A DNA stretch of 64,000 bases from Naegleria gruberi (GCA_000004985.1 GG738848.1); one strand, 5' to 3'. Positions 48,349-55,639 are shown, counted from the stretch's first letter. Program-made: numbers and translations. Notes: generated by a model not told the origin, from the letters alone.

Positions 48349-49185
48349 CTAAAAACCTTTAAAATAAAGTATTCCTATATTTTTACATACCTTAACCCTA
48401 CATTTTTTCAATTTTAAAAATTCCAGATTTGTCAATTTGCTTAAACATGTAGCTCCTGTAATGTGTAGGAATCCATTTTCTATTTCTAATCGTTTTAAAT
48501 TAATTAATTCAGAAATTGACATTAGTGCATGATCTCCAATACAATGATTTTCAATTATCAATGAAGTCAATTGTGTTATTTTTTTAAATTCTAAAAAAAT
48601 TGATTTTTTAGGATAAAATATTTCTCTGCCTGATGAATTGATAAAGCAAAGCTCCCTCAAATGGATTAATTTGCTTATTTGATCCAAATGATGGATCTCA
48701 ATATCGTGTACAATTAATTTTCTTAATTTGGGTAAAATTGCCAAATCATGTAAATCTTCCATAATGTAACTCAATTCCAATTCTTCCAAATTTATCAATT
48801 TTTGTAAAGGACTCAACGAAGAGGTAATTTTAGTAAATTTTAAATATTTCAAATTGACAAATTGTGAAATAATTTCCAAAATAAAACTACCATCACAAAT
48901 GAGATATTGTAAATTGATGAAAATTTCTACATGTTCTTGTTTTAGAAAATTGTAAATATTTCGGATGTGTAAATTGTGAGCATTCCGAAACTTTTTAAAA
49001 GCACTAGTAAAATAATTCCAAATATTTTCATCACGAATTAAACTTGTGCGAATGAGGGAAAGTTTAGTTGTGAATAAACATCGCAACCACTTTTCACAAA
49101 CCAAAGAACACACTTGAATTAGAAACTTTGGTTCATGAAATACAAAAATTTGATGAGAAATAATTTCATCCGGTAATTGTTCCAT
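48349..49185 (-). CDS. F-box-like / LRR protein
   Basis: The N-terminus LPDEIISHQIFVFHEPKFLIQVCSLVCEKWL is followed by LRR units (LEELELSYI, LRELCFINSSG, LKRLEIENGFL). Confidence 0.5.
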   Translation of the reverse strand: MEQLPDEIISHQIFVFHEPKFLIQVCSLVCEKWLRCLFTTKLSLIRTSLIRDENIWNYFTSAFKKFRNAHNLHIRNIYNFLKQEHVEIFINLQYLICDGSFILEIISQFVNLKYLKFTKITSSLSPLQKLINLEELELSYIMEDLHDLAILPKLRKLIVHDIEIHHLDQISKLIHLRELCFINSSGREIFYPKKSIFLEFKKITQLTSLIIENHCIGDHALMSISELINLKRLEIENGFLHITGATCLSKLTNLEFLKLKKCRVKVCKNIGILYFKGF

Positions 49186-49228
49186 TTTTTTTAATAAAAT
49201 TTAAAACAATTTTTTTTTCAATTTTTTA

Positions 49229-49273
49229 CATTTATAGTAAAAACAATGAGACAACAAGCTCGAAAACATTGAG
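49229..49273. repeat. Retroelement repeat B (terminal 3' copy)
   Basis: Identical 45 bp. AT-rich host-like DNA follows to the left of 49229. Confidence 0.8.
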
Positions 49274-49438
49274 TTTATTCTTCTACGCGTACACAAATTG
49301 CATACACTTTTATCCTCTTTTCATTCATTCAGCCATCCAGCCAGCTCAGTATTCATGGATATACTACTATATCATACTAAACTAACCTTAGACTGAATAA
49401 ACTCACATATTTGCAACTACTAGCAAAACAAACCAAAT

Positions 49439-49494
49439 AGATATTCCTATGAATATCTATTCGAACTTCAGTAGATATTCCATTGAATATCTAC
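49439..49494. repeat. Two adjacent perfect hairpin palindromes in the retroelement spacer
   Basis: The first is agatattc-ctat-gaatatct, with 8-bp arms. The second is gtagatattc-catt-gaatatctac, with 10-bp arms. The two share the same arm core and are separated by 12 nt. Confidence 0.7.
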
Positions 49495-49652
49495 TTAAAA
49501 AACCCTCATTGGGTATTGATCGTGACAAGGGCTATCCCGGTGTCAACATGTTAAATTATCGCCACCTTCCTGGCCGATCAAATGACACCGTCGTCTATTA
49601 AGCCAATATAATACTTACAGATATTTTCGATCTAGGGTGGGGTGGTGGGTCA

Positions 49653-49854
49653 TCTTAAGTATGTCAGTGATGGTTTCTTGAATTGTTGATTGACTCATAA
49701 TGTGTTGCAATTTTTTCAACTTGAGTTTTACTTTCCTTCAGTAAAACTCTCTATTTAACCTAAATTTTCATTGTAAAATTTAGGTTGACTACGTTACCTG
49801 GTTGTCTATTGTTTTTACAATATAAACTTACGTAAGGTGTGGACCTTACTACCA
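49653..49854. repeat. Retroelement repeat A (internal/3' copy)
   Basis: Identical to 53688..53889 by direct comparison. Confidence 0.85.
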
Positions 49855-49897
49855 TTTATAGTAAAAACAATGAGACAACAAGCTCGAAAACATTGAG
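49853..49897. repeat. Retroelement repeat B (internal copy), abutting repeat A
   Basis: catttatagtaaaaacaatgagacaacaagctcgaaaacattgag is identical to 49229..49273. It is followed by accttacta, which repeats the end of A. Confidence 0.8.
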
Positions 49898-49914
49898 ACC
49901 TTACTAGCATAAGT

Positions 49915-52900
49915 TTAGAAGCCCATCAAGTGTGAACCGTTTCTATCACCTCTAAAGTTAGCTCGAAAATATCTGTCTATAGCATCTGAATTCCAACCAC
50001 CCATGGCCTTGATGGTAGCATCAGGGATACCCATAATGGCAGCCTCCGTGGCTCCACCAATTCTCAACGAATGAGAAGAGTACTTTCCTGGATCAGCTTC
50101 GATCCATGTTGCAACCTGAGTTAAGATGTAAGAAATCTCAACTGTATTTAAAGAAAAACCACCGGTAAACAAAAACTTTCCTTTGTCTCTTGAATCAAGT
50201 AATTTTTGAAGCCATTTCATCGGACACAATTCAGAACCTGTCGCTTCGATACATGATTTTCTTCCTTTCTTATCATTCTTCACTTTTCTCACTGTTATAC
50301 TAAACCCCACCACCGGGAACTTCACAATCTTTAGATCCTCTATTAATAAACCACCCAATTCTGAACCCCTAAACATTGACCTTATACCAAAAATCATTAG
50401 GCACGTGTATAGAACATATGATTTTTCTTTAACAAACTGTCTACCAACAATTACCCATTTACAAATAAATTCTATTCTCCATGGATCTCTTTCTCTCTTT
50501 GTCGCCACTGTAGCCAGATTGCACATACCCTTTATCACCATCTGTACTCTAATGTTTACTGTAATATCCTCCCAACCAATCCTTTTACAAAAATGCTTAA
50601 TAGCATACATTGCACTTCGACAGTTATTACCAGATGGTGTTTTGATGAACATAAAGGTGAGAAATCTGACTACCATTTCACTAGTTGCTGGTGGAACCTC
50701 TTTTTGCTTAATAAGAAAGTTGATAAATCTATTCCAATAACTTTCATAGTTGTCTGTTGTGGATATTTCAATTGAACATGACATTAATGTATCTGCAATC
50801 TTACTCAAATCGTGACTCTGCAGTCTACTAATGTTGCTCTTATGGTCCAAAATCCTTTGCATGGTTCTAGGTTCCCTCCTTGGGAGGCTCTGAAATGATT
50901 TCCATCTAGATTCATAAAACGAATTTGATAACTTTCTATTATCTTCCACCACCACCTCTTTTTCCATACTGGATGAACCAATACCATAACTGCTTTGGAC
51001 TCTAGACAATGTTGTAATACTCTCCCTATTAGATTGAAAGGTACGCAGCACCAATTTACCACTGGCTCTGTCCAAAGGTGAGAGAATGAATCTGCTTTCT
51101 CTCTTCTGCTGGTCTTCTTTCTCACTGTATATGGTTTTGTCTTGAAGTTGTAATGAGAGGCGAATCTGTCCCATCCTATTGATACATCCAGCTGCTTCTC
51201 TACTAATTGAAAAGCTTCTTTGGTAATCTCCCAATCTGTTGGGTCTTTCTCTTGAATATTTCTGCTCAGATTGTCCGCTACTTGATTCTCCTCCGAAGGT
51301 AACCATTCTAACGAAAGCAAACGGATGTCGTGTTCGAAAATAATGCGCCATATTAGTTGAATCAATTGATTCATAATGGGAGACTTTGCTCTTCCCTTCA
51401 TTATACAATATAGAGCCACCTTTGAATCCGTGTAAACAATTAAATTCTTTCCTTTCAAAAGATGTGACCATTCTTTTAGGGCAAGATAGATCGCTCTCAC
51501 TTCTAATACATTGATATGTTCTTGGCATTGTTCTCCCTTCCAAAAACCTTGTAGTTTCAAATTTCTTTCTTTGTGGAAAACTCCCCATCCCAATCTCGAT
51601 GCATCTGTCCAAAAGTATTCCACTAAGCTTGGATATTGGAACACCTTTCCATTCCAATGGTCCAAGTTGTATAAAATCCATTGGAGATTGAAAATTACAT
51701 CTCGGTCTCTGATGCGAAATTCGGAATCCCAGCCTCCAATATTCACCTAGTCCACCACTAAAGAATAAATCGGATTCAACATCACCCTTGCAGGTTGGAA
51801 ACAGTCTACATAAGCAATTATAATACCAGTCATCCGAAACAGTTCTCTGGATGTTACTTTCTGATCTTGGTGATACTTGGCAAGGGCTATGGAAATACGA
51901 GTTCGAATTTTCTCTAATGTAGCTTCTGTCATAATTAATTTCCTGCTGACCAGATCTATCTTGATCCCAAGTAGTTGAAAGACTTTTAATGGAGTTAACT
52001 GACTCTTCTTCTTTTCGATAACTACACCTAATTCTGCACATACCATTGTAACGAATGTATTGTTCCTTAATGCAGATAAATAGGAACCAAAATGTAATAA
52101 ACCAACATCGTCTAAGTAATTGGATGGTGTTAAAGAATCTGATCTCAAAAAATTGATAAATACATTCATCATTTGTGTAAAAAAGTATGGAGATCCATTC
52201 CATCCAAATGGAAGGACTGTGAATTGCAAAACCTCTTCCTCTACTTGAATGGCAAAGTATGGTCTGTCCTTCCTTTTTACCTTCATCTGGTGATATCCGG
52301 ATTTCATATCGAACATAGAACCCCAAATTTGATCTGTCTTGTTCATTGGTACGTGTTCTAAAAACTTCTTCAACGTGTTGTACTTGAATTTGGGGATAGA
52401 ACAAAACCGATTGAGCGGTCTTAAATCGATAATCAGTCGGTATGATTCTTTCTTTGGGACCAGCCGATACTTGGCTATCACTTTTGGATTGTGACAAGGT
52501 TCCAAAGCTCCAATCTCTTTCAAAATACTCACTTCTCTTTTTAACCATTCTCTCTCTTCCAAAGACCATTCTTCTAAATTTACCTTTCCATAGTATGGAA
52601 CAAATTCTTCGTTTGTTTGAACTGATACACCCTCTTTCAACATATCCACTATTTCCATTGAAGCTCCTTTCTTCCTCCAGGTATCCCATTTGTTCGAAAT
52701 GGAATGAATAGCCTCTCTTCTTTCTTCTACCTCTCGGAAAAAACAAATCATCTACATACTCTGAACCCTCTCTTTTATTTCTCTTAGGGCAATCTTTGAT
52801 CAGATGGTTTGGGTCATTACAAATAAAGCATTTCTTCACTTTCTTCATACCATTAGCACTACCAAACATATTCACCTTTTCCTCTGCCTTATCTTTCTTA

Positions 52901-53754
52901 TCATAAATCTTGGCATTTGCATAGGATTTAACAAAACTTGTCTTACCCTTCTCCTTATGGTCGAACTTGAGTAGTTTTTCTGCCATCTTAAGCTTATCCA
53001 TGTTCTCACGCCATAATGGATTGCTTTCTATAAACGCCAATTTAGATGCTAATTCTGGATTGACGGCTTGAACTTGTAATTGGAAAGCTCTTGTCTCTAA
53101 GTTCGCAACCATTTTCTTCGTATCATCTATTTCTGGGAAAAGATTAGCTATCTTCATTGTAAAAGCAGAATCCTTTCTCAAATTCTCATATTCTGTAAGA
53201 AGACTAGAATTAGTTGTTGGCAATGGTGTGTAGATTGTATCTGTGTATTTTCTAACTTCAGATTCAGCTGCCAATTGTTGTAAAACACGTTCTGTTTCAG
53301 CTTTTTCCAGCTTCATCTGTGCAATCTTAGCATCGATTATTTGTTCATAAGCCTTAAATCTCTTCACATCTTCTTCTGATACCTCTTCTCTCTTTCTCTT
53401 GTTAGAGCCATCTTCAACTTCTACAACTGACTCACCATCGTCCTCTTCGTCATCATCATCGTCATCATCATCTCTTGCTTCCTTGAATGCATGTTTAATC
53501 TCATCCTTTAACTTCTCTACATCTTTACTCTTGCCACTTGTGCAAACCGTAAACTTGTCTGCACCAATAAAGTCAACAATTGCCTTTGCCAATACCTTCT
53601 TTTGGCCAGAAACTTCAATTTCCAAGGTACCTATAATCTTTTGTATCAAGGCCTTTGTTAACTTTCCAACAGCACTTTTATCATGCTTCTTAAGTATGTC
53701 AGTGATGGTTTCTTGAATTGTTGATTGACTCATAATGTGTTGCAATTTTTTCAA
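49915..53754 (-). CDS. Retroelement long ORF (1279 aa): gag (N-terminal ~335 aa) ... overprinted linker ... tyrosine recombinase (C-terminal ~300-400 aa)
   Basis: One continuous frame. The N-terminus MSQSTIQETITDILKKH has a poly-Asp tract and a CCHC knuckle. The C-terminus has the tyrosine-recombinase R..HxxR..Y motifs. The central ~600 codons overlap the RT/RNase H frame and show no domain of their own. Confidence 0.75.
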   Translation of the reverse strand: MKKLQHIMSQSTIQETITDILKKHDKSAVGKLTKALIQKIIGTLEIEVSGQKKVLAKAIVDFIGADKFTVCTSGKSKDVEKLKDEIKHAFKEARDDDDDDDDEEDDGESVVEVEDGSNKRKREEVSEEDVKRFKAYEQIIDAKIAQMKLEKAETERVLQQLAAESEVRKYTDTIYTPLPTTNSSLLTEYENLRKDSAFTMKIANLFPEIDDTKKMVANLETRAFQLQVQAVNPELASKLAFIESNPLWRENMDKLKMAEKLLKFDHKEKGKTSFVKSYANAKIYDKKDKAEEKVNMFGSANGMKKVKKCFICNDPNHLIKDCPKRNKREGSEYVDDLFFPRGRRKKRGYSFHFEQMGYLEEERSFNGNSGYVERGCISSNKRRICSILWKGKFRRMVFGRERMVKKRSEYFERDWSFGTLSQSKSDSQVSAGPKERIIPTDYRFKTAQSVLFYPQIQVQHVEEVFRTRTNEQDRSNLGFYVRYEIRISPDEGKKEGQTILCHSSRGRGFAIHSPSIWMEWISILFYTNDECIYQFFEIRFFNTIQLLRRCWFITFWFLFICIKEQYIRYNGMCRIRCSYRKEEESVNSIKSLSTTWDQDRSGQQEINYDRSYIRENSNSYFHSPCQVSPRSESNIQRTVSDDWYYNCLCRLFPTCKGDVESDLFFSGGLGEYWRLGFRISHQRPRCNFQSPMDFIQLGPLEWKGVPISKLSGILLDRCIEIGMGSFPQRKKFETTRFLEGRTMPRTYQCIRSESDLSCPKRMVTSFERKEFNCLHGFKGGSILYNEGKSKVSHYESIDSTNMAHYFRTRHPFAFVRMVTFGGESSSGQSEQKYSRERPNRLGDYQRSFSISREAAGCINRMGQIRLSLQLQDKTIYSEKEDQQKRESRFILSPLDRASGKLVLRTFQSNRESITTLSRVQSSYGIGSSSMEKEVVVEDNRKLSNSFYESRWKSFQSLPRREPRTMQRILDHKSNISRLQSHDLSKIADTLMSCSIEISTTDNYESYWNRFINFLIKQKEVPPATSEMVVRFLTFMFIKTPSGNNCRSAMYAIKHFCKRIGWEDITVNIRVQMVIKGMCNLATVATKRERDPWRIEFICKWVIVGRQFVKEKSYVLYTCLMIFGIRSMFRGSELGGLLIEDLKIVKFPVVGFSITVRKVKNDKKGRKSCIEATGSELCPMKWLQKLLDSRDKGKFLFTGGFSLNTVEISYILTQVATWIEADPGKYSSHSLRIGGATEAAIMGIPDATIKAMGGWNSDAIDRYFRANFRGDRNGSHLMGF
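50805..51746 (-). CDS. Retroelement RNase H (+ downstream domain) ORF, same frame as RT, separated from it by one TAG
   Basis: FWTDASRLGWGVF...LEVRAIYLALKEW...LIVYTDSKVALYCI are RNase H motifs. There is no ATG; it is listed with a GTG start. Confidence 0.75.
   Translation of the reverse strand: MNIGGWDSEFRIRDRDVIFNLQWILYNLDHWNGKVFQYPSLVEYFWTDASRLGWGVFHKERNLKLQGFWKGEQCQEHINVLEVRAIYLALKEWSHLLKGKNLIVYTDSKVALYCIMKGRAKSPIMNQLIQLIWRIIFEHDIRLLSLEWLPSEENQVADNLSRNIQEKDPTDWEITKEAFQLVEKQLDVSIGWDRFASHYNFKTKPYTVRKKTSRREKADSFSHLWTEPVVNWCCVPFNLIGRVLQHCLESKAVMVLVHPVWKKRWWWKIIESYQIRFMNLDGNHFRASQGGNLEPCKGFWTIRATLVDCRVTI
51747..52751 (-). CDS. Retroelement reverse transcriptase ORF, in the +1 frame relative to gag
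   Basis: LIIDLRPLNRF, KSGYHQMKV, LPFGWNGSPYFF and YLDDVGLL are RT motifs 1-5. The ORF ends with TAG at 51747..51749. Confidence 0.8.
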   Translation of the reverse strand: MICFFREVEERREAIHSISNKWDTWRKKGASMEIVDMLKEGVSVQTNEEFVPYYGKVNLEEWSLEEREWLKREVSILKEIGALEPCHNPKVIAKYRLVPKKESYRLIIDLRPLNRFCSIPKFKYNTLKKFLEHVPMNKTDQIWGSMFDMKSGYHQMKVKRKDRPYFAIQVEEEVLQFTVLPFGWNGSPYFFTQMMNVFINFLRSDSLTPSNYLDDVGLLHFGSYLSALRNNTFVTMVCAELGVVIEKKKSQLTPLKVFQLLGIKIDLVSRKLIMTEATLEKIRTRISIALAKYHQDQKVTSRELFRMTGIIIAYVDCFQPARVMLNPIYSLVVD

Positions 53755-53889
53755 CTTGAGTTTTACTTTCCTTCAGTAAAACTCTCTATTTAACCTAAAT
53801 TTTCATTGTAAAATTTAGGTTGACTACGTTACCTGGTTGTCTATTGTTTTTACAATATAAACTTACGTAAGGTGTGGACCTTACTACCA
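53688..53889. repeat. Retroelement terminal repeat A (5' copy). It contains the gag ATG.
   Basis: The 202 bp are identical to 49653..49854. The copy begins tcttaagtatgtcagtgatgg and ends ggaccttactacca. Confidence 0.85.
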
Positions 53890-53940
53890 ATTATTTAGAA
53901 TTTACAAATATAGATAATAATATACAAATAATCGGCAAGA

Positions 53941-55639
53941 TTACTTTTGAGAAACCATATTCTTTGCAATGAGGAGGGATACATTCTTTGCTGAGATTAG
54001 GTTAGTTTCCATAGTACTGACAACACTTTCAACACTATTCGTATAGTAAATATTATTGTGGAGTTTGACAGGAGGTTGAATATTATTTGGTTTGAGAATT
54101 GGATAACTTCCATGTTTCCAAACTTGTTGAACTACTGATGTGGCTCCAACAAACATTTCCTGTAATGTTTTGGTTGAAAGTGGCTCATGACTATACGATT
54201 CGAATATTCTTTCTGATTCATCAGGTGTCTTTCCAATAGGTGCAATATTATTGAGTGGTAGATATTTGGTCAAAAGTGGTTTCATTGTTGTAATATACAC
54301 ATCTGATTCAGAGCAATCAGTTCCAAAATAATTCTTGTTCAAGTCCTTTGCACGAATAATGCTAGTAATCAGAATATTCATATCACGTTTTTGTAAGGCA
54401 GATGGAGGAAGTTTGATATTTTCAAATTTGATATTTGTAAACTCGAGTGGAGTTGCAACAATTACATAATCAAATTGACCGAGTTCAGAATTGTTTCCAC
54501 TCTTGAGAGAATACTTGTTTGATGCTGGATCGAATGAAATTTCAGAAACTTCACTATTCAACTTTAAGGTCAATCGATCTTTTGGAATTGATTCAATGCA
54601 ACCAAGTGGAACTTTTGAGGTTCCTTCAAGAACATGTCTAAAATCAGAAACTGCTCCAGCTAATCCAATAATTCCTCCATAGGCACTGATTTGATCAGAG
54701 TTTTGCATATAATTGATTCTCAAAATTGGATCACAATATTCCTTGATAAAACGTTCTTGAATCCAATTATTTCTTGCATATTCATAGAAAGTCAATTTGG
54801 TCAAATCACTCATTCCAGTATCTTGACAAAAATCTTCAGTACTTTCCCATGTATAGACCTTACTCAATGTTTCTGCATTTAATGGACCAGTCGATGGCAA
54901 TTCTTGGAGTTTGTAAATATTTAAAAATCTCTCCTTTGACAAGTAGTAATTAACACTTCTCTTCAATAAGAAGAGAGGAATACCAAAATCATATCTCCAT
55001 GCTCCTCTAATTGCAGTCTTCCACCAACTGTCAGATTCACAAAATACCATTCTCTTTTCGTCACCATTAAATATACCAATTCTGACATTAAAATGAGGTT
55101 CTTCCAATGTCAAATTAAACTTTTCAATCAAGCCCAAAATGTACTTGTTTTCCAAAATGACAGATGATCCACCCACTTCATATGAATACTTTGAATTTTG
55201 TCAATTAATTTTGATTCTGAAACATTAATTATAATAAACAAACCTTGTATGGATCCTTCTCATCCTGATACAAGACCATTTCCTTCAAACGACCTCCAAC
55301 TCGATCATCCCTCTCATAAACCACCAATTCAATTTCTCTCTTCATTTCTTGAGAATTGGAATTTGGCTCTGGTGAAGAAGAAGAGGAATCATTTTCTCTT
55401 CTATTCATCTCATCAACCAATTCGGAGAGAAAGTAGGCAGAGCCAGAACCAGAAATTCCACTGCCAATAATTGCAACTCTCTTATTGATCATTGAATTAT
55501 TAGCAACCTTTGGTGTTTCAGCTTGAATGGTTGTTGTAGGAAGGATCATGGAGTTTTTAGTGTGAGAAAAGTAGTTAGATCCGATCAAGCCAACTGAACC
55601 AACAGACAAAGTGGCAGCAACTAGACGTTTTAAAGACAT
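53941..55639 (-). CDS. Prenylcysteine oxidase (PCYOX1-like FAD flavoprotein), 2 exons, with a signal peptide
   Basis: Exons are about 55229..55639 and 53941..55187, with a phase-0 junction ...DEKDPYK|YSYEVGGSSVIL. Collinear with PCYOX1. The FAD motif is VAIIGSGISGSGSAYFL, followed by ELVVYERDDRVGGRL. Further matches are YEVGGS, DPILRINYMQNSDQISAYGGIIGLAGA and YVIVATPLEF. Confidence 0.8.

What the first reader, a model, noticed from the sequence alone, without database searches (positions are those of the whole stretch)
49274..49652. Retroelement spacer carries two tandem perfect hairpins and ends in a G-run
The spacer between internal repeat A and terminal repeat B is relatively GC-rich. It contains the two perfect palindromes listed above, 12 nt apart. 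It ends with gggtggggtggtggg (49635..49649) directly abutting repeat A. Inverted-repeat arms flanking a short spacer are the classic architecture of tyrosine-recombinase core sites. The paired hairpins plus a potential G-quadruplex at the A boundary are candidate recombination or priming signals.
Basis: seen in the sequence. Interest (0 to 1): 0.5.

Follow-up and report, generated by a model that had tools for sequence, protein, structure and literature searches.

The report
Structured tail of a Naegleria retrotransposon
The two hairpins and the G-run are real and sit in the non-coding tail of a tyrosine-recombinase retrotransposon of the amoeba Naegleria gruberi; related Naegleria elements keep the same layout, so they are probably replication signals rather than the recombination site, which matters modestly because nobody knows how this class of elements primes and completes its DNA copy.

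Summary
The window is Naegleria gruberi. On the minus strand (53894..49229) lies a 4.7 kb tyrosine-recombinase (DIRS-order) retrotransposon with split direct repeats: A1, ORFs, B1A2, a 379 nt spacer, B2.

On the element's sense strand the spacer starts with CCCACCACCCCACCC, 3 nt after A2. It carries two tandem 11 bp stem-loops and ends with AATAAA directly before B2. The G-run is the only G-quadruplex-like motif in 64 kb. Six of the eight perfect hairpins with stems of at least 10 bp in the window belong to this element.

Two independent relatives keep the layout with different sequences: N. lovaniensis copies and an environmental contig. Each has one antisense G4-like motif at the homologous place (at the A2 boundary where that could be mapped), then tandem stem-loops.

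The recombinase crossover site is better placed at the B|A junction (ATAAATGG), not at the hairpins.

Best reading: conserved cis-acting signals of the 3' untranslated module, acting on single-stranded RNA or cDNA. The function is inferred, not shown. This is a new variant of a known kind and of moderate interest.

The parts
53688..53894 (-). Repeat A1, the 5' end of the element. It holds a TATA-like TTAAATAG, two perfect hairpins (53758-53784 and 53792-53821) and the gag ATG with its first 15 codons.
   Evidence: The gag start agrees with the N. gruberi gene model P0061. The promoter and transcription-start assignment is inferred.
49915..53754 (-). Long ORF of 1279 aa. It has a gag-like N-terminus with a CCHC knuckle and a tyrosine recombinase at the C-terminus (HSLRIGG...GGWNSDAIDRYF).
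   Evidence: zf-CCHC E=7e-4; Phage_integrase E=2e-5, below the Pfam cut-off; homologues.
50805..52751 (-). pol frame embedded in the long ORF: RT (52751-51750), an in-frame TAG (51749-51747), then RNase H plus a possible methyltransferase-like domain (51746-50805).
   Evidence: (RVT_1 E=4.8e-18; RNase H families weak).
49853..49897 (-). Repeat B1, the internal copy. It lies directly upstream of A2, and together they form the internal copy of the circle junction.
49852..49859 (-). B|A junction motif ATAAATGG, flanked by TTACTA / TAGTAA. This is the proposed recombinase crossover region.
   Evidence: The same octamer stands at the same place in L001 and L011. The inverted arms are weak evidence.
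49653..49859 (-). Repeat A2, the internal copy, with hairpins at 49723-49749 and 49757-49786.
49635..49649 (.). G-run GGGTGGGGTGGTGGG on the + strand, which is CCCACCACCCCACCC on the element's sense strand. It lies 3 nt after the end of A2.
   Evidence: Conserved in L002 (3904-3919). A G4-like counterpart stands in N. lovaniensis L008 (10129-10142), starting 1 nt after A2.
49621..49634 (-). Conserved block TAGATCGAAAATAT following the C-run.
   Evidence: identical in L002 and L003.
49470..49495 (.). Stem-loop 1 in sense order: AGTAGATATTC-aatg-GAATATCTACT, an 11 bp stem.
49436..49461 (.). Stem-loop 2 in sense order: AATAGATATTC-atag-GAATATCTATT, an 11 bp stem. It extends to 14 pairs with G.U on the sense strand only. 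It differs from stem-loop 1 by a compensatory G:C to A:T pair.
49395..49426 (-). Conserved blocks TTGCTAGTAGTTGCA (49412-49426) and GAGTTTATTC (49395-49404), just downstream of the stem-loops.
   Evidence: identical in L002 and L003.
49271..49283 (-). GAAGAATAAACTC. It contains the AATAAA hexamer (49274-49279) directly before B2. GAATAAACTC is complementary to GAGTTTATTC (49395-49404).
   Evidence: GAAGAATAAA also precedes B2 in N. lovaniensis. The poly(A)-signal role is inferred.
49229..49273 (-). Repeat B2, the 3' end of the element.

Best explanation
What it is. The region is the 3' non-coding module of a split-direct-repeat tyrosine-recombinase retrotransposon (DIRS order, PAT-like layout) of Naegleria gruberi. 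The element is on the minus strand and reads: A1, gag/pol/YR, B1A2, spacer, B2.

Proposed role. The spacer is transcribed as the 3' untranslated part of the genomic RNA. It carries conserved cis-acting replication signals that work in single-stranded nucleic acid, not as the recombinase crossover site.

Shown:
- the anatomy of the element;
- the statistical oddity of the hairpins and the G-run;
- their positional conservation in two further lineages.

Inferred:
1. Transcription starts late in A1, downstream of a TATA-like box, and ends in B2, just after the AATAAA that abuts it. The RNA therefore lacks both extremities, and these are restored from the internal B1A2 junction. This is the standard model for such elements.
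2. The tandem stem-loops form on the sense strand. They serve as the recognition platform for the element's RT or Gag, for template selection, packaging or the start of minus-strand synthesis.
3. The run is G-rich on the minus-strand cDNA and sits exactly where repeat A2 ends. I propose that it folds into a quadruplex-type block. The block would stop plus-strand synthesis at the end of A2 and so promote transfer of that strand onto the A1 complement. That would explain why the repeat boundary and the run coincide.

Integration itself would use the B|A junction (ATAAATGG).
For: Identity of the element.
- Host: eight flanking ORFs match N. gruberi proteins exactly.
- RT, RNase H, a CCHC gag and a C-terminal recombinase lie on the minus strand.
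- Repeats A and B are arranged A1...B1A2...B2.

Non-randomness.
- Hairpin pair z = -8.
- Whole spacer plus B2 as sense RNA z = -4.96.
- It holds the only G4-like motif in 64 kb.
- Six of the eight long perfect hairpins of the window are in this element.

Conservation across lineages whose RT or YR proteins are 40-60% identical.
- L002 has the identical C-run and the blocks TAGATCGAAAATAT, TTGCTAGTAGTTGCA and GAGTTTATTC, in the same order. It has three consecutive hairpins just upstream of TTGCTAGTAGTTGCA (z = -2.2 and -3.5).
- N. lovaniensis L008 and L004 have B1A2, a spacer of about 500 nt, then B2. CCCACCCTCCTCCC starts 1 nt after A2 and is the only G4-like motif in 15.9 kb.
- Their spacers hold 6-7 perfect short palindromes, against 1.1-1.25 expected (0 of 500 shuffles reached the observed count).
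- All 11 units between GGATG motifs fold as hairpins.

Pairing rather than sequence is kept.
- The two N. gruberi stems differ by a compensatory A:T/G:C pair.
- The N. lovaniensis palindromes all differ in sequence.

Sense-strand bias.
- G.U extensions exist only on the sense strand.
- The sense strand is more stable for both N. gruberi hairpins and for 8 of the 11 N. lovaniensis units.

RNA 3' end.
- AATAAA occurs only twice in the 4666 nt sense strand, one of them directly before B2.
- GAAGAATAAA precedes B2 in N. lovaniensis too.

Junction.
- ATAAATGG is conserved at the B1/A2 junction in L001 and L011.

Literature.
- The primer of DIRS reverse transcription is unknown. A 3' hairpin has been proposed as a primer. 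The main intermediate is linear single-stranded antisense cDNA (PMC7192593).
- G-quadruplexes promote RT strand transfer in HIV-1 (PMC4227801).
Against: - No function was tested. Everything beyond anatomy and conservation is inference.
- Only three independent lineages have a readable 3' module. No other N. gruberi copy could be reached.
- Hairpin number, size and sequence differ widely between lineages.
- The N. lovaniensis array is not thermodynamically exceptional (z = +0.9 to -1.6). The L002 spacer as a whole is not either (z = +0.66).
- The G-run has three GGG tracts and one GG tract, so it is not a canonical four-tract quadruplex motif.
- A C-rich protein-binding site on the RNA would explain the conservation of composition equally well.
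- The stem that would sequester AATAAA competes with another pairing in the N. gruberi minimum-energy fold. It is not reproduced at the B2 boundary in L002.
- The N. gruberi copy has an in-frame TAG in pol, so it may be inactive.
- TATA and AATAAA usage in Naegleria is assumed, not checked.
Confidence: 0.5

Rival explanations
1. The palindromes are double-stranded DNA sites for the element's tyrosine recombinase. They would be either the crossover core, or accessory 'arm-type' sites that give the B2|A1 junction of the circular intermediate its directionality.
For: - The element encodes a tyrosine recombinase.
- The sites are perfect palindromes.
- In the circular form the spacer lies just upstream of the B2|A1 junction.
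- N. lovaniensis has about 12 direct copies of GGGATGCC in the same region, which look like iterated protein-binding sites.
Against: - The element's ends join at the B|A junction, 180-420 nt from the hairpins.
- The arms enclose 4 nt rather than the 6-8 bp crossover region of known sites (established knowledge).
- Palindrome sequences are not conserved between lineages, although the recombinases are 41-55% identical.
- Within N. lovaniensis each palindrome has a different sequence.
- G.U-only extensions favour pairing within one strand.
- An accessory role is not excluded.
Confidence: 0.15
2. The features have no function. The spacer would be a fast-evolving non-coding stretch in which palindromic units arise and duplicate by slippage or snap-back synthesis during reverse transcription. 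The G-run would be a lineage relic.
For: - Hairpin sequence, number and length differ in each lineage.
- The two N. gruberi hairpins are an obvious tandem duplication.
- N. lovaniensis has a 136 nt duplication inside its array.
- The array's folding energy is ordinary.
Against: - The same order is kept in three lineages at 40-60% protein identity: A2, G/C-run, stem-loops, AATAAA-proximal block, B2. In each sequence examined the G4-like motif is unique.
- Several 14-15 nt blocks are identical between N. gruberi and L002.
- The two N. gruberi stems differ by a compensatory pair.
- Palindromes are enriched in N. lovaniensis (0 of 500 shuffles reached the observed count).
Confidence: 0.15
3. The hairpins self-prime minus-strand cDNA synthesis at the 3' end of the RNA. 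This is the role Poulter and Goodwin suggested for a hairpin in Dictyostelium DIRS-1.
For: - The primer of DIRS reverse transcription is unknown, and a 3' hairpin has been proposed (PMC7192593).
- The stems are stable (-13 to -15 kcal/mol each).
Against: - The hairpins lie about 165-230 nt upstream of B2 and of the AATAAA, so they are not at the RNA 3' terminus.
- cDNA primed from them would omit the rest of the spacer and B2. Yet both independent N. lovaniensis insertions carry these.
Confidence: 0.1
4. The run works on the sense RNA as a C-rich, unpaired binding platform, for a poly(C)-binding-type host protein or for Gag. It would not act as a G-quadruplex on the cDNA.
For: - The C-run is predicted to be unpaired in the sense RNA of N. 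gruberi and N. lovaniensis.
- Composition rather than exact sequence is conserved in N. lovaniensis.
- No complementary partner is conserved in the element RNA.
Against: - It does not explain why the run starts 0-3 nt from the end of repeat A2 in both lineages where the boundary could be mapped.
- Both versions keep three GGG tracts plus one GG with 1-nt loops on the antisense strand.
Confidence: 0.1

Closest known systems
PAT-like and other split-direct-repeat elements of the DIRS order (Pat1, kangaroo, TOC, Ngaro)
   Same: - Gag, RT/RNase H and a tyrosine recombinase.
- Termini arranged A1...B1A2...B2, with an internal B1A2 copy of the circle junction.
- Literature description as A1-[ORFs]-B1A2B2 (PMC8547959; PMC4157794).
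   Different: - Published schemes show B1, A2 and B2 adjacent. Here A2 and B2 are separated by 379 nt (about 500 nt in N. lovaniensis) of conserved, structured sequence.
- Unlike what is reported as usual for Ngaro, the ORFs overlap for about 2 kb, and a methyltransferase-like region may be present.
- No phylogeny was made.
Dictyostelium DIRS-1 and DIRS1-like elements
   Same: - Long overlap of the recombinase frame with the RT/RNase H frame.
- An internal sequence that reproduces the joined ends.
- An earlier survey listed N. gruberi as carrying DIRS1-like sequences (PMC3266345).
- An open question about the primer, and a suggested 3' hairpin (PMC7192593).
   Different: [quoted passage not shown] This element has direct repeats and no terminal inverted repeat.
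VIPER and its short derivative SIRE in Trypanosoma cruzi
   Same: Split direct repeats in which A2 and B2 are separated by a unique segment. The A2-unique-B2 module exists as a separate short repeat, SIRE (PMC6681497).
   Different: - The unique segment is about 30 bp there, against 379-500 nt here.
- No stem-loops or G-run are described for it.
- Whether the Naegleria A2-spacer-B2 module exists on its own could not be tested.
Cis-acting signals of LTR retroelements and retroviruses (PBS, polypurine tract, poly(A) hairpin, packaging stem-loops, G-quadruplexes near the HIV-1 central polypurine tract)
   Same: - Short signals abut the repeat boundaries.
- Stem-loops lie in untranslated RNA.
- G-rich structures make RT pause and switch template (PMC4227801).
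- A purine-rich GAAGAATAAA directly precedes B2.
   Different: - The run next to A2 is pyrimidine-rich on the sense strand and has no TGG start, so it is neither a polypurine tract nor a tRNA primer-binding site.
- Repeats are split rather than long terminal repeats.
- The resemblance is functional only.

Membership tests
DIRS order (tyrosine-recombinase retrotransposons) | Reverse transcriptase and RNase H | tested here: met
   RVT_1 E=4.8e-18. RNase H families (RVT_3, RT_RNaseH, RNase_H) E=3e-5 to 7e-4, near or below their cut-offs. YLDD motif read.
DIRS order (tyrosine-recombinase retrotransposons) | Tyrosine recombinase instead of a DDE integrase | tested here: met
   Phage_integrase E=2e-5 (24.9 bits, cut-off 27.1). 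HSLRIGG and the tyrosine in GGWNSDAIDRYF read. Homologues include a N. lovaniensis 'Tyr recombinase domain-containing protein'. No integrase or protease family was found.
DIRS order (tyrosine-recombinase retrotransposons) | Internal copy of the joined termini (circle junction) | tested here: met
   B1 lies directly upstream of A2, and B2 and A1 are the termini. The same holds in N. lovaniensis.
PAT-like / split-direct-repeat superfamilies | Termini A1-[ORFs]-B1A2B2 with B1, A2 and B2 adjacent | tested here: inconclusive
   The order A1...B1A2...B2 is met. The adjacency of A2 and B2 is not: 379 nt intervene, and 498 nt in L008. Whether published PAT or Ngaro members also have such spacers was not checked in their sequences.
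PAT-like / DIRS1-like (as opposed to Ngaro and VIPER) | Methyltransferase-like domain after RNase H | tested here: inconclusive
   No Pfam hit. A weak BLASTP match (E=0.001) joins the post-RNase H region to the Dam-like part of a related RT protein, P0030.
DIRS1-like superfamily | Inverted terminal repeats plus an internal complementary region | tested here: not met
   The terminal repeats are direct. No inverted repeat joins the two ends.
   The arms of 10-11 bp enclose 4 nt.
   The junction is at 49852-49859 and the hairpins at 49436-49495.
   Needs purified protein.
G-quadruplex | Four G-tracts of at least three G with short loops | tested here: inconclusive
   N. gruberi and L002 have GGG-T-GGGG-T-GG-T-GGG. 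N. lovaniensis has GGG-A-GG-A-GGG-T-GGG. That is three GGG tracts and one GG, so folding would need a bulge or only two tetrads.
G-quadruplex | Cation-dependent folding | not testable with these tools
   Needs circular dichroism, melting, or polymerase-stop assays.
tRNA primer-binding site | Sense-strand sequence beginning TGG, complementary to a tRNA 3' end, directly after the repeat | tested here: not met
   After A2 comes TGACCCACCACC in N. gruberi and CCCACCC in N. lovaniensis. The window holds no tRNA gene to compare.
Polypurine tract | Purine run on the sense strand directly upstream of a repeat | tested here: not met
   The run at A2 is C/A on the sense strand and lies downstream of the repeat. 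GAAGAATAAA before B2 is a separate candidate.
Rfam RNA families | Match to a curated covariance model | tested here: not met
   Only one sub-threshold match, E=0.79, within 49100-50000.

The most novel reading that the evidence does not exclude
The antisense G-run would be a programmed quadruplex-type roadblock on the single-stranded minus cDNA. It stops plus-strand synthesis exactly at the end of A2 and hands the nascent strand over to the A1 complement. The position of the run would then define the repeat boundary, giving split-repeat recombinase retrotransposons a counterpart of the retroviral strong-stop transfer. The tandem sense-strand stem-loops would be the site where RT or Gag selects the template. 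Together these would supply the missing cis-elements of DIRS-order replication.
Probability: 0.15. Interest if true: 0.7.

Novelty: new variant of a known kind. Interest (0 to 1): 0.42.

Why it matters
Tyrosine-recombinase retrotransposons are widespread, but their replication is the least understood among retroelements. The primer of first-strand synthesis is unknown. The way the ends are rebuilt is known mainly from a model, with one experimental study in Dictyostelium (PMC7192593).

This case offers a compact element with apparently intact, nearly identical copies in N. lovaniensis. Its 3' module keeps three things in a fixed order across lineages: a unique G4-like run at a repeat boundary, tandem stem-loops, and a poly(A) signal abutting the terminal repeat.

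That gives concrete, mutable candidates for experiments. It also shows that the textbook B1A2B2 layout can carry a sizeable functional-looking spacer.

For genome annotation, the N. gruberi gene model that splices gag to the recombinase is a retrotransposon artefact.

Tried and rejected
Searches that found nothing useful.
- The protein search with the whole 1279 aa ORF found nothing.
- The exact look-up of the RT ORF found nothing.
- A metagenome scan with a recombinase alignment found no relative.
- The conserved 20 nt core of repeat B (TCTCAWTGTTWTCGAGCTTG) was scanned in three collections. It gave 7 metagenome hits, 7 bacterial-MAG hits and no viral hit. None encodes RT or recombinase, and none matches beyond about 20-30 nt, so they are chance matches.
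- Contigs L001, L005, L006, L010 and L011 end 40-200 nt after the recombinase gene, so they do not reach the spacer. L012 has unrelated sequence after the gene.
- L007 is a distant Ngaro-like element with a GDSL hydrolase and was not used.

Analyses that gave no signal.
- A global MAFFT alignment of the three 3' regions was uninformative. Anchors were found by pattern search and pairwise alignment instead.
- Rfam gave no family.
- The window holds no tRNA genes for a primer test.
- No conserved complementary partner of the C-run exists in the element RNA. The best duplexes fall at different places in N. gruberi and N. lovaniensis.
- Tandem Repeats Finder does not report the two N. gruberi hairpins as an array.

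Ideas rejected.
- tRNA primer-binding site and polypurine-tract readings of the run: wrong strand composition and no TGG.
- 3'-terminal self-priming by the hairpins: they are not at the RNA end.
- A protein-coding role of the 50 aa ORF at 49449-49601: it is not conserved and lies antisense to the element.

Full report
**Observation.**
- Repeat B (45 nt) is at 49229-49273 and 49853-49897. Repeat A (207 nt) is at 49653-49859 and 53688-53894. The spacer is therefore 49274-49652.
- The two palindromes are at 49438-49459 and 49472-49493, 12 nt apart, with no matches expected by chance. Each extends to an 11 bp perfect stem with a 4 nt loop.
- GGGTGGGGTGGTGGG is at 49635-49649, with 0.01 matches expected. 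Three bases separate it from repeat A.
- The hairpin pair folds far better than shuffled sequence, with z about -8 on either strand.
- A stem of 11 bp appeared in 0.2% of shuffles of the spacer.
- In the whole window only eight perfect hairpins have a stem >=10 and a loop <=8. Two are AT low-complexity and six are in this element: two in the spacer and two in each copy of A.
- The G-run is the only G4-like motif on either strand of the 64 kb.
- The spacer (GC 0.37-0.42) is richer than the intergenic flanks (0.24-0.29) but not richer than the element's coding part.

**Host and element.**
- Eight neighbouring ORFs are exact matches to Naegleria gruberi NEG-M proteins.
- The element lies on the minus strand. 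A 1279 aa ORF (53754-49915) begins with a gag-like part carrying a CCHC knuckle. It ends with a tyrosine recombinase (HSLRIGG...GGWNSDAIDRYF).
- A second frame inside that ORF encodes RT (RVT_1 E=4.8e-18) and RNase H. It is interrupted here by one TAG.
- Read on the sense strand the order is: A1 (holding the gag ATG), ORFs, B1 directly followed by A2, the spacer, then B2.
- This is the split-direct-repeat layout of the DIRS order (PMC8547959; PMC4157794). The difference is that A2 and B2 are not adjacent.
- On this strand the run reads CCCACCACCCCACCC and opens the spacer. The hairpins lie in the middle. The spacer closes with GAAGAATAAA directly before B2. AATAAA occurs only twice in the 4666 nt sense strand.

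**Relatives.** Protein searches found few relatives, at 40-60% identity. Three kinds of contig reach the 3' module.

*Environmental contigs L002 and L003.*
- Their RT is 58% identical to the window's, and the recombinase catalytic part is deleted.
- They carry the identical C-run, then TAGATCGAAAATAT, then three consecutive hairpins, then TTGCTAGTAGTTGCA and GAGTTTATTC. The order is the same as in the window, and the contig ends in a B-like ...CAAATG.

*N. lovaniensis.*
- L008 appears to be an intact copy, with long ORFs of 1317 and 675 aa. L004 is a 5'-truncated copy about 99% identical to it.
- Both read B1, A2, a spacer of about 500 nt, B2.
- Their spacer starts 1 nt after A2 with CCCACCCTCCTCCCAATCCACC. 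On the antisense strand this is the only G4-like motif in 15.9 kb.
- A perfect 8 bp hairpin follows, then an array of GGGATGCC-delimited units. All 11 units between GGATG motifs fold as stem-loops.
- Perfect short palindromes number 6-7 against 1.1-1.25 expected; none of 500 shuffles reached that.
- GAAGAATAAA again precedes B2.

*L001, L010 and L011.*
- These reach only B1 and the start of A2.
- They show a conserved B core, and the same ATAAATGG where the junction lies in the window.

**What the comparison says.**
- The order is kept: A2 boundary, G/C-run, tandem stem-loops, AATAAA-proximal block, B2.
- The stem-loop sequences are not kept.
- The two N. gruberi stems differ by a compensatory A:T/G:C pair.
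- The N. lovaniensis palindromes all differ from each other yet stay self-complementary.
- Extensions of the stems use G.U pairs, which exist only on the sense strand. The sense strand is more stable for both N. gruberi hairpins and for 8 of the 11 N. lovaniensis units.
- All this points to pairing within a single strand, most likely the sense RNA or plus strand. It does not point to one sequence-specific double-strand binding protein.

Cautions:
- The N. lovaniensis array is not thermodynamically exceptional (z = +0.9 to -1.6).
- The L002 spacer as a whole is not either.
- Only three lineages are available.

**The recombination site.**
- The ends of the element are B2 and A1, so their joined form is the internal B1A2 junction.
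- There the sequence is TTACTA-TAAATGG-TAGTAA.
- B2 matches the junction up to ...CTATAAATG. A1 matches it from TGGTAG onward, with the host flank reading ATAAT before it.
- This pattern is what a short crossover region shared with the target would give. DIRS1-like elements show a shared trinucleotide (PMC3266345; PMC7192593).
- In N. lovaniensis the corresponding overlap is AAA.
- The hairpins are 360-420 nt from this point and enclose only 4 nt. They therefore fail two defining features of a core site. An accessory role cannot be excluded.

**Mechanism (inferred).**
- A TATA-like TTAAATAG lies at positions 102-109 of A. L011 has TATAAATAG at the matching place. This suggests transcription starts in the last 70 nt or so of A1.
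- The AATAAA abutting B2 suggests the RNA ends inside B2.
- The RNA then lacks both extremities, and these must be restored from B1A2, as in the accepted model.
- The whole of A2, the C-run and the stem-loops would be in the 3' part of this RNA.
- I take the stem-loops to be the recognition platform for RT or Gag. They are too far from the RNA end for simple self-priming. cDNA primed from them would also lose the rest of the spacer and B2, yet both independent N. lovaniensis insertions carry these.
- The run coincides with the end of the A repeat in both lineages where that end can be mapped: 3 nt away in N. gruberi and 0 nt in N. lovaniensis.
- In LTR elements, repeat boundaries are set by where synthesis starts or stops.
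- DIRS-1 produces mainly linear single-stranded antisense cDNA. G-quadruplexes make RT pause and switch template in HIV-1.
- A block on the G-rich minus strand that stops plus-strand synthesis at the end of A2, and favours its transfer to the A1 complement, would explain three things: the strand bias, the position, and the conservation of G-tract pattern rather than exact sequence.
- This step is speculative. The motif has only three GGG tracts, and a C-rich RNA protein site is a fair rival.

**Comparison with known systems.**
- The element belongs to the DIRS order: RT, RNase H, recombinase and an internal circle junction are all met.
- It is not DIRS1-like by termini, because it has no inverted repeats. 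An earlier survey did list N. gruberi under DIRS1-like on protein similarity.
- It fits the PAT-like layout except for the spacer. The methyltransferase-like domain is only weakly supported.
- The nearest precedent for a unique segment between A2 and B2 is VIPER/SIRE of T. cruzi, with about 30 bp.
- No Rfam family matches.

**Verdict.** The retroelement context is right. The recombination-core reading of the hairpins is not supported. The idea of conserved cis-signals is supported by position and architecture, but not by any functional test. It is a new variant of a known kind, of moderate interest.

Noticed in passing
window 49915-53754 (-) and 50805-52751 (-); L008 5950-9903 and 6977-9004: One ORF runs through the whole element, from gag to the recombinase (1279 aa; 1317 aa in N. 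lovaniensis). The entire RT/RNase H frame (about 2 kb) is embedded in it in another frame. Both frames are open in N. lovaniensis.
   Followed up: partly
window 51747-51749 (-): A single in-frame TAG splits the pol frame between RT and RNase H in the N. gruberi copy. The N. lovaniensis copy is uninterrupted. A1/A2 and B1/B2 are nevertheless identical, so this is either a recent insertion with a fresh nonsense mutation or a case of readthrough.
   Followed up: partly
window 49915-53733 (-); protein P0061: The public N. gruberi gene model (559 aa 'predicted protein') joins the gag start to the recombinase C-terminus through a predicted intron that removes the middle of the element. This is an annotation artefact of the retrotransposon.
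   Followed up: yes
window 49723-49749, 49757-49786 (A2) and 53758-53784, 53792-53821 (A1); L008 10014-10043: Repeat A carries its own pair of perfect hairpins (10 and 12 bp stems), 7 nt apart. N. lovaniensis has an 11 bp hairpin of different sequence at a similar place in A. Both species also have a small hairpin right at the start of A.
   Followed up: partly
L004 about 10005 (corresponds to L008 8553); L005 about 2240: 5'-truncated copies have a precise 3' end: the break lies in the post-RNase H part of pol and no A1 is present. This is unexpected for integration of a complete circle by a recombinase.
   Followed up: partly
L008 10203-10460; L004 11659-11916: About 12 direct copies of GGGATGCC lie 18-30 nt apart, each followed by a different short palindrome. 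A 136 nt internal duplication lies within the array. The copies look like iterated binding sites as well as stem-loops.
   Followed up: partly
window 49613-49618 and 49419-49426 (-): The spacer contains a consensus-like 5' splice site (TCT|GTAAGT) shortly after the C-run, and a pyrimidine tract plus TAG inside the conserved block TTTTGCTAGTAG. An intron of about 200 nt spanning both hairpins is conceivable. L002 keeps the TAG block but has GTTAAT at the donor.
   Followed up: no
window 49898-49907 and 49842-49851 (-): The 10-mer TAGTAAGGTC occurs just before B1 and again at the start of A2 (and of A1), so B1 is bracketed by a short direct repeat. N. lovaniensis shows a weaker CGGTA echo.
   Followed up: no
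window 49650-49733 (-); L002 3829-3924; L008 10060-10163: The gag start codon copied in A2 opens a short ORF that reads through the C-run as a Pro/His-rich tail and then stops. The tails are MSQ...ILKMTHHPTLDRKYL*, ...NSPPPHP* and ...KSTHPPPNPPLK*. In L004 this ATG is mutated, within a cluster of four changes.
   Followed up: no
window 48349-49185 (-) and 53941-55176 (-): The element is inserted in the intergenic gap between an F-box/LRR gene and a prenylcysteine-lyase-like gene. It lies 46 nt after the stop of the latter and 43 nt before the start of the former.
   Followed up: no
L009 589-1305 and 3025-5166: An environmental contig carries an RT fragment of the L002 family next to a gene with Transposase_21 and DUF1258 domains.
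   Followed up: no
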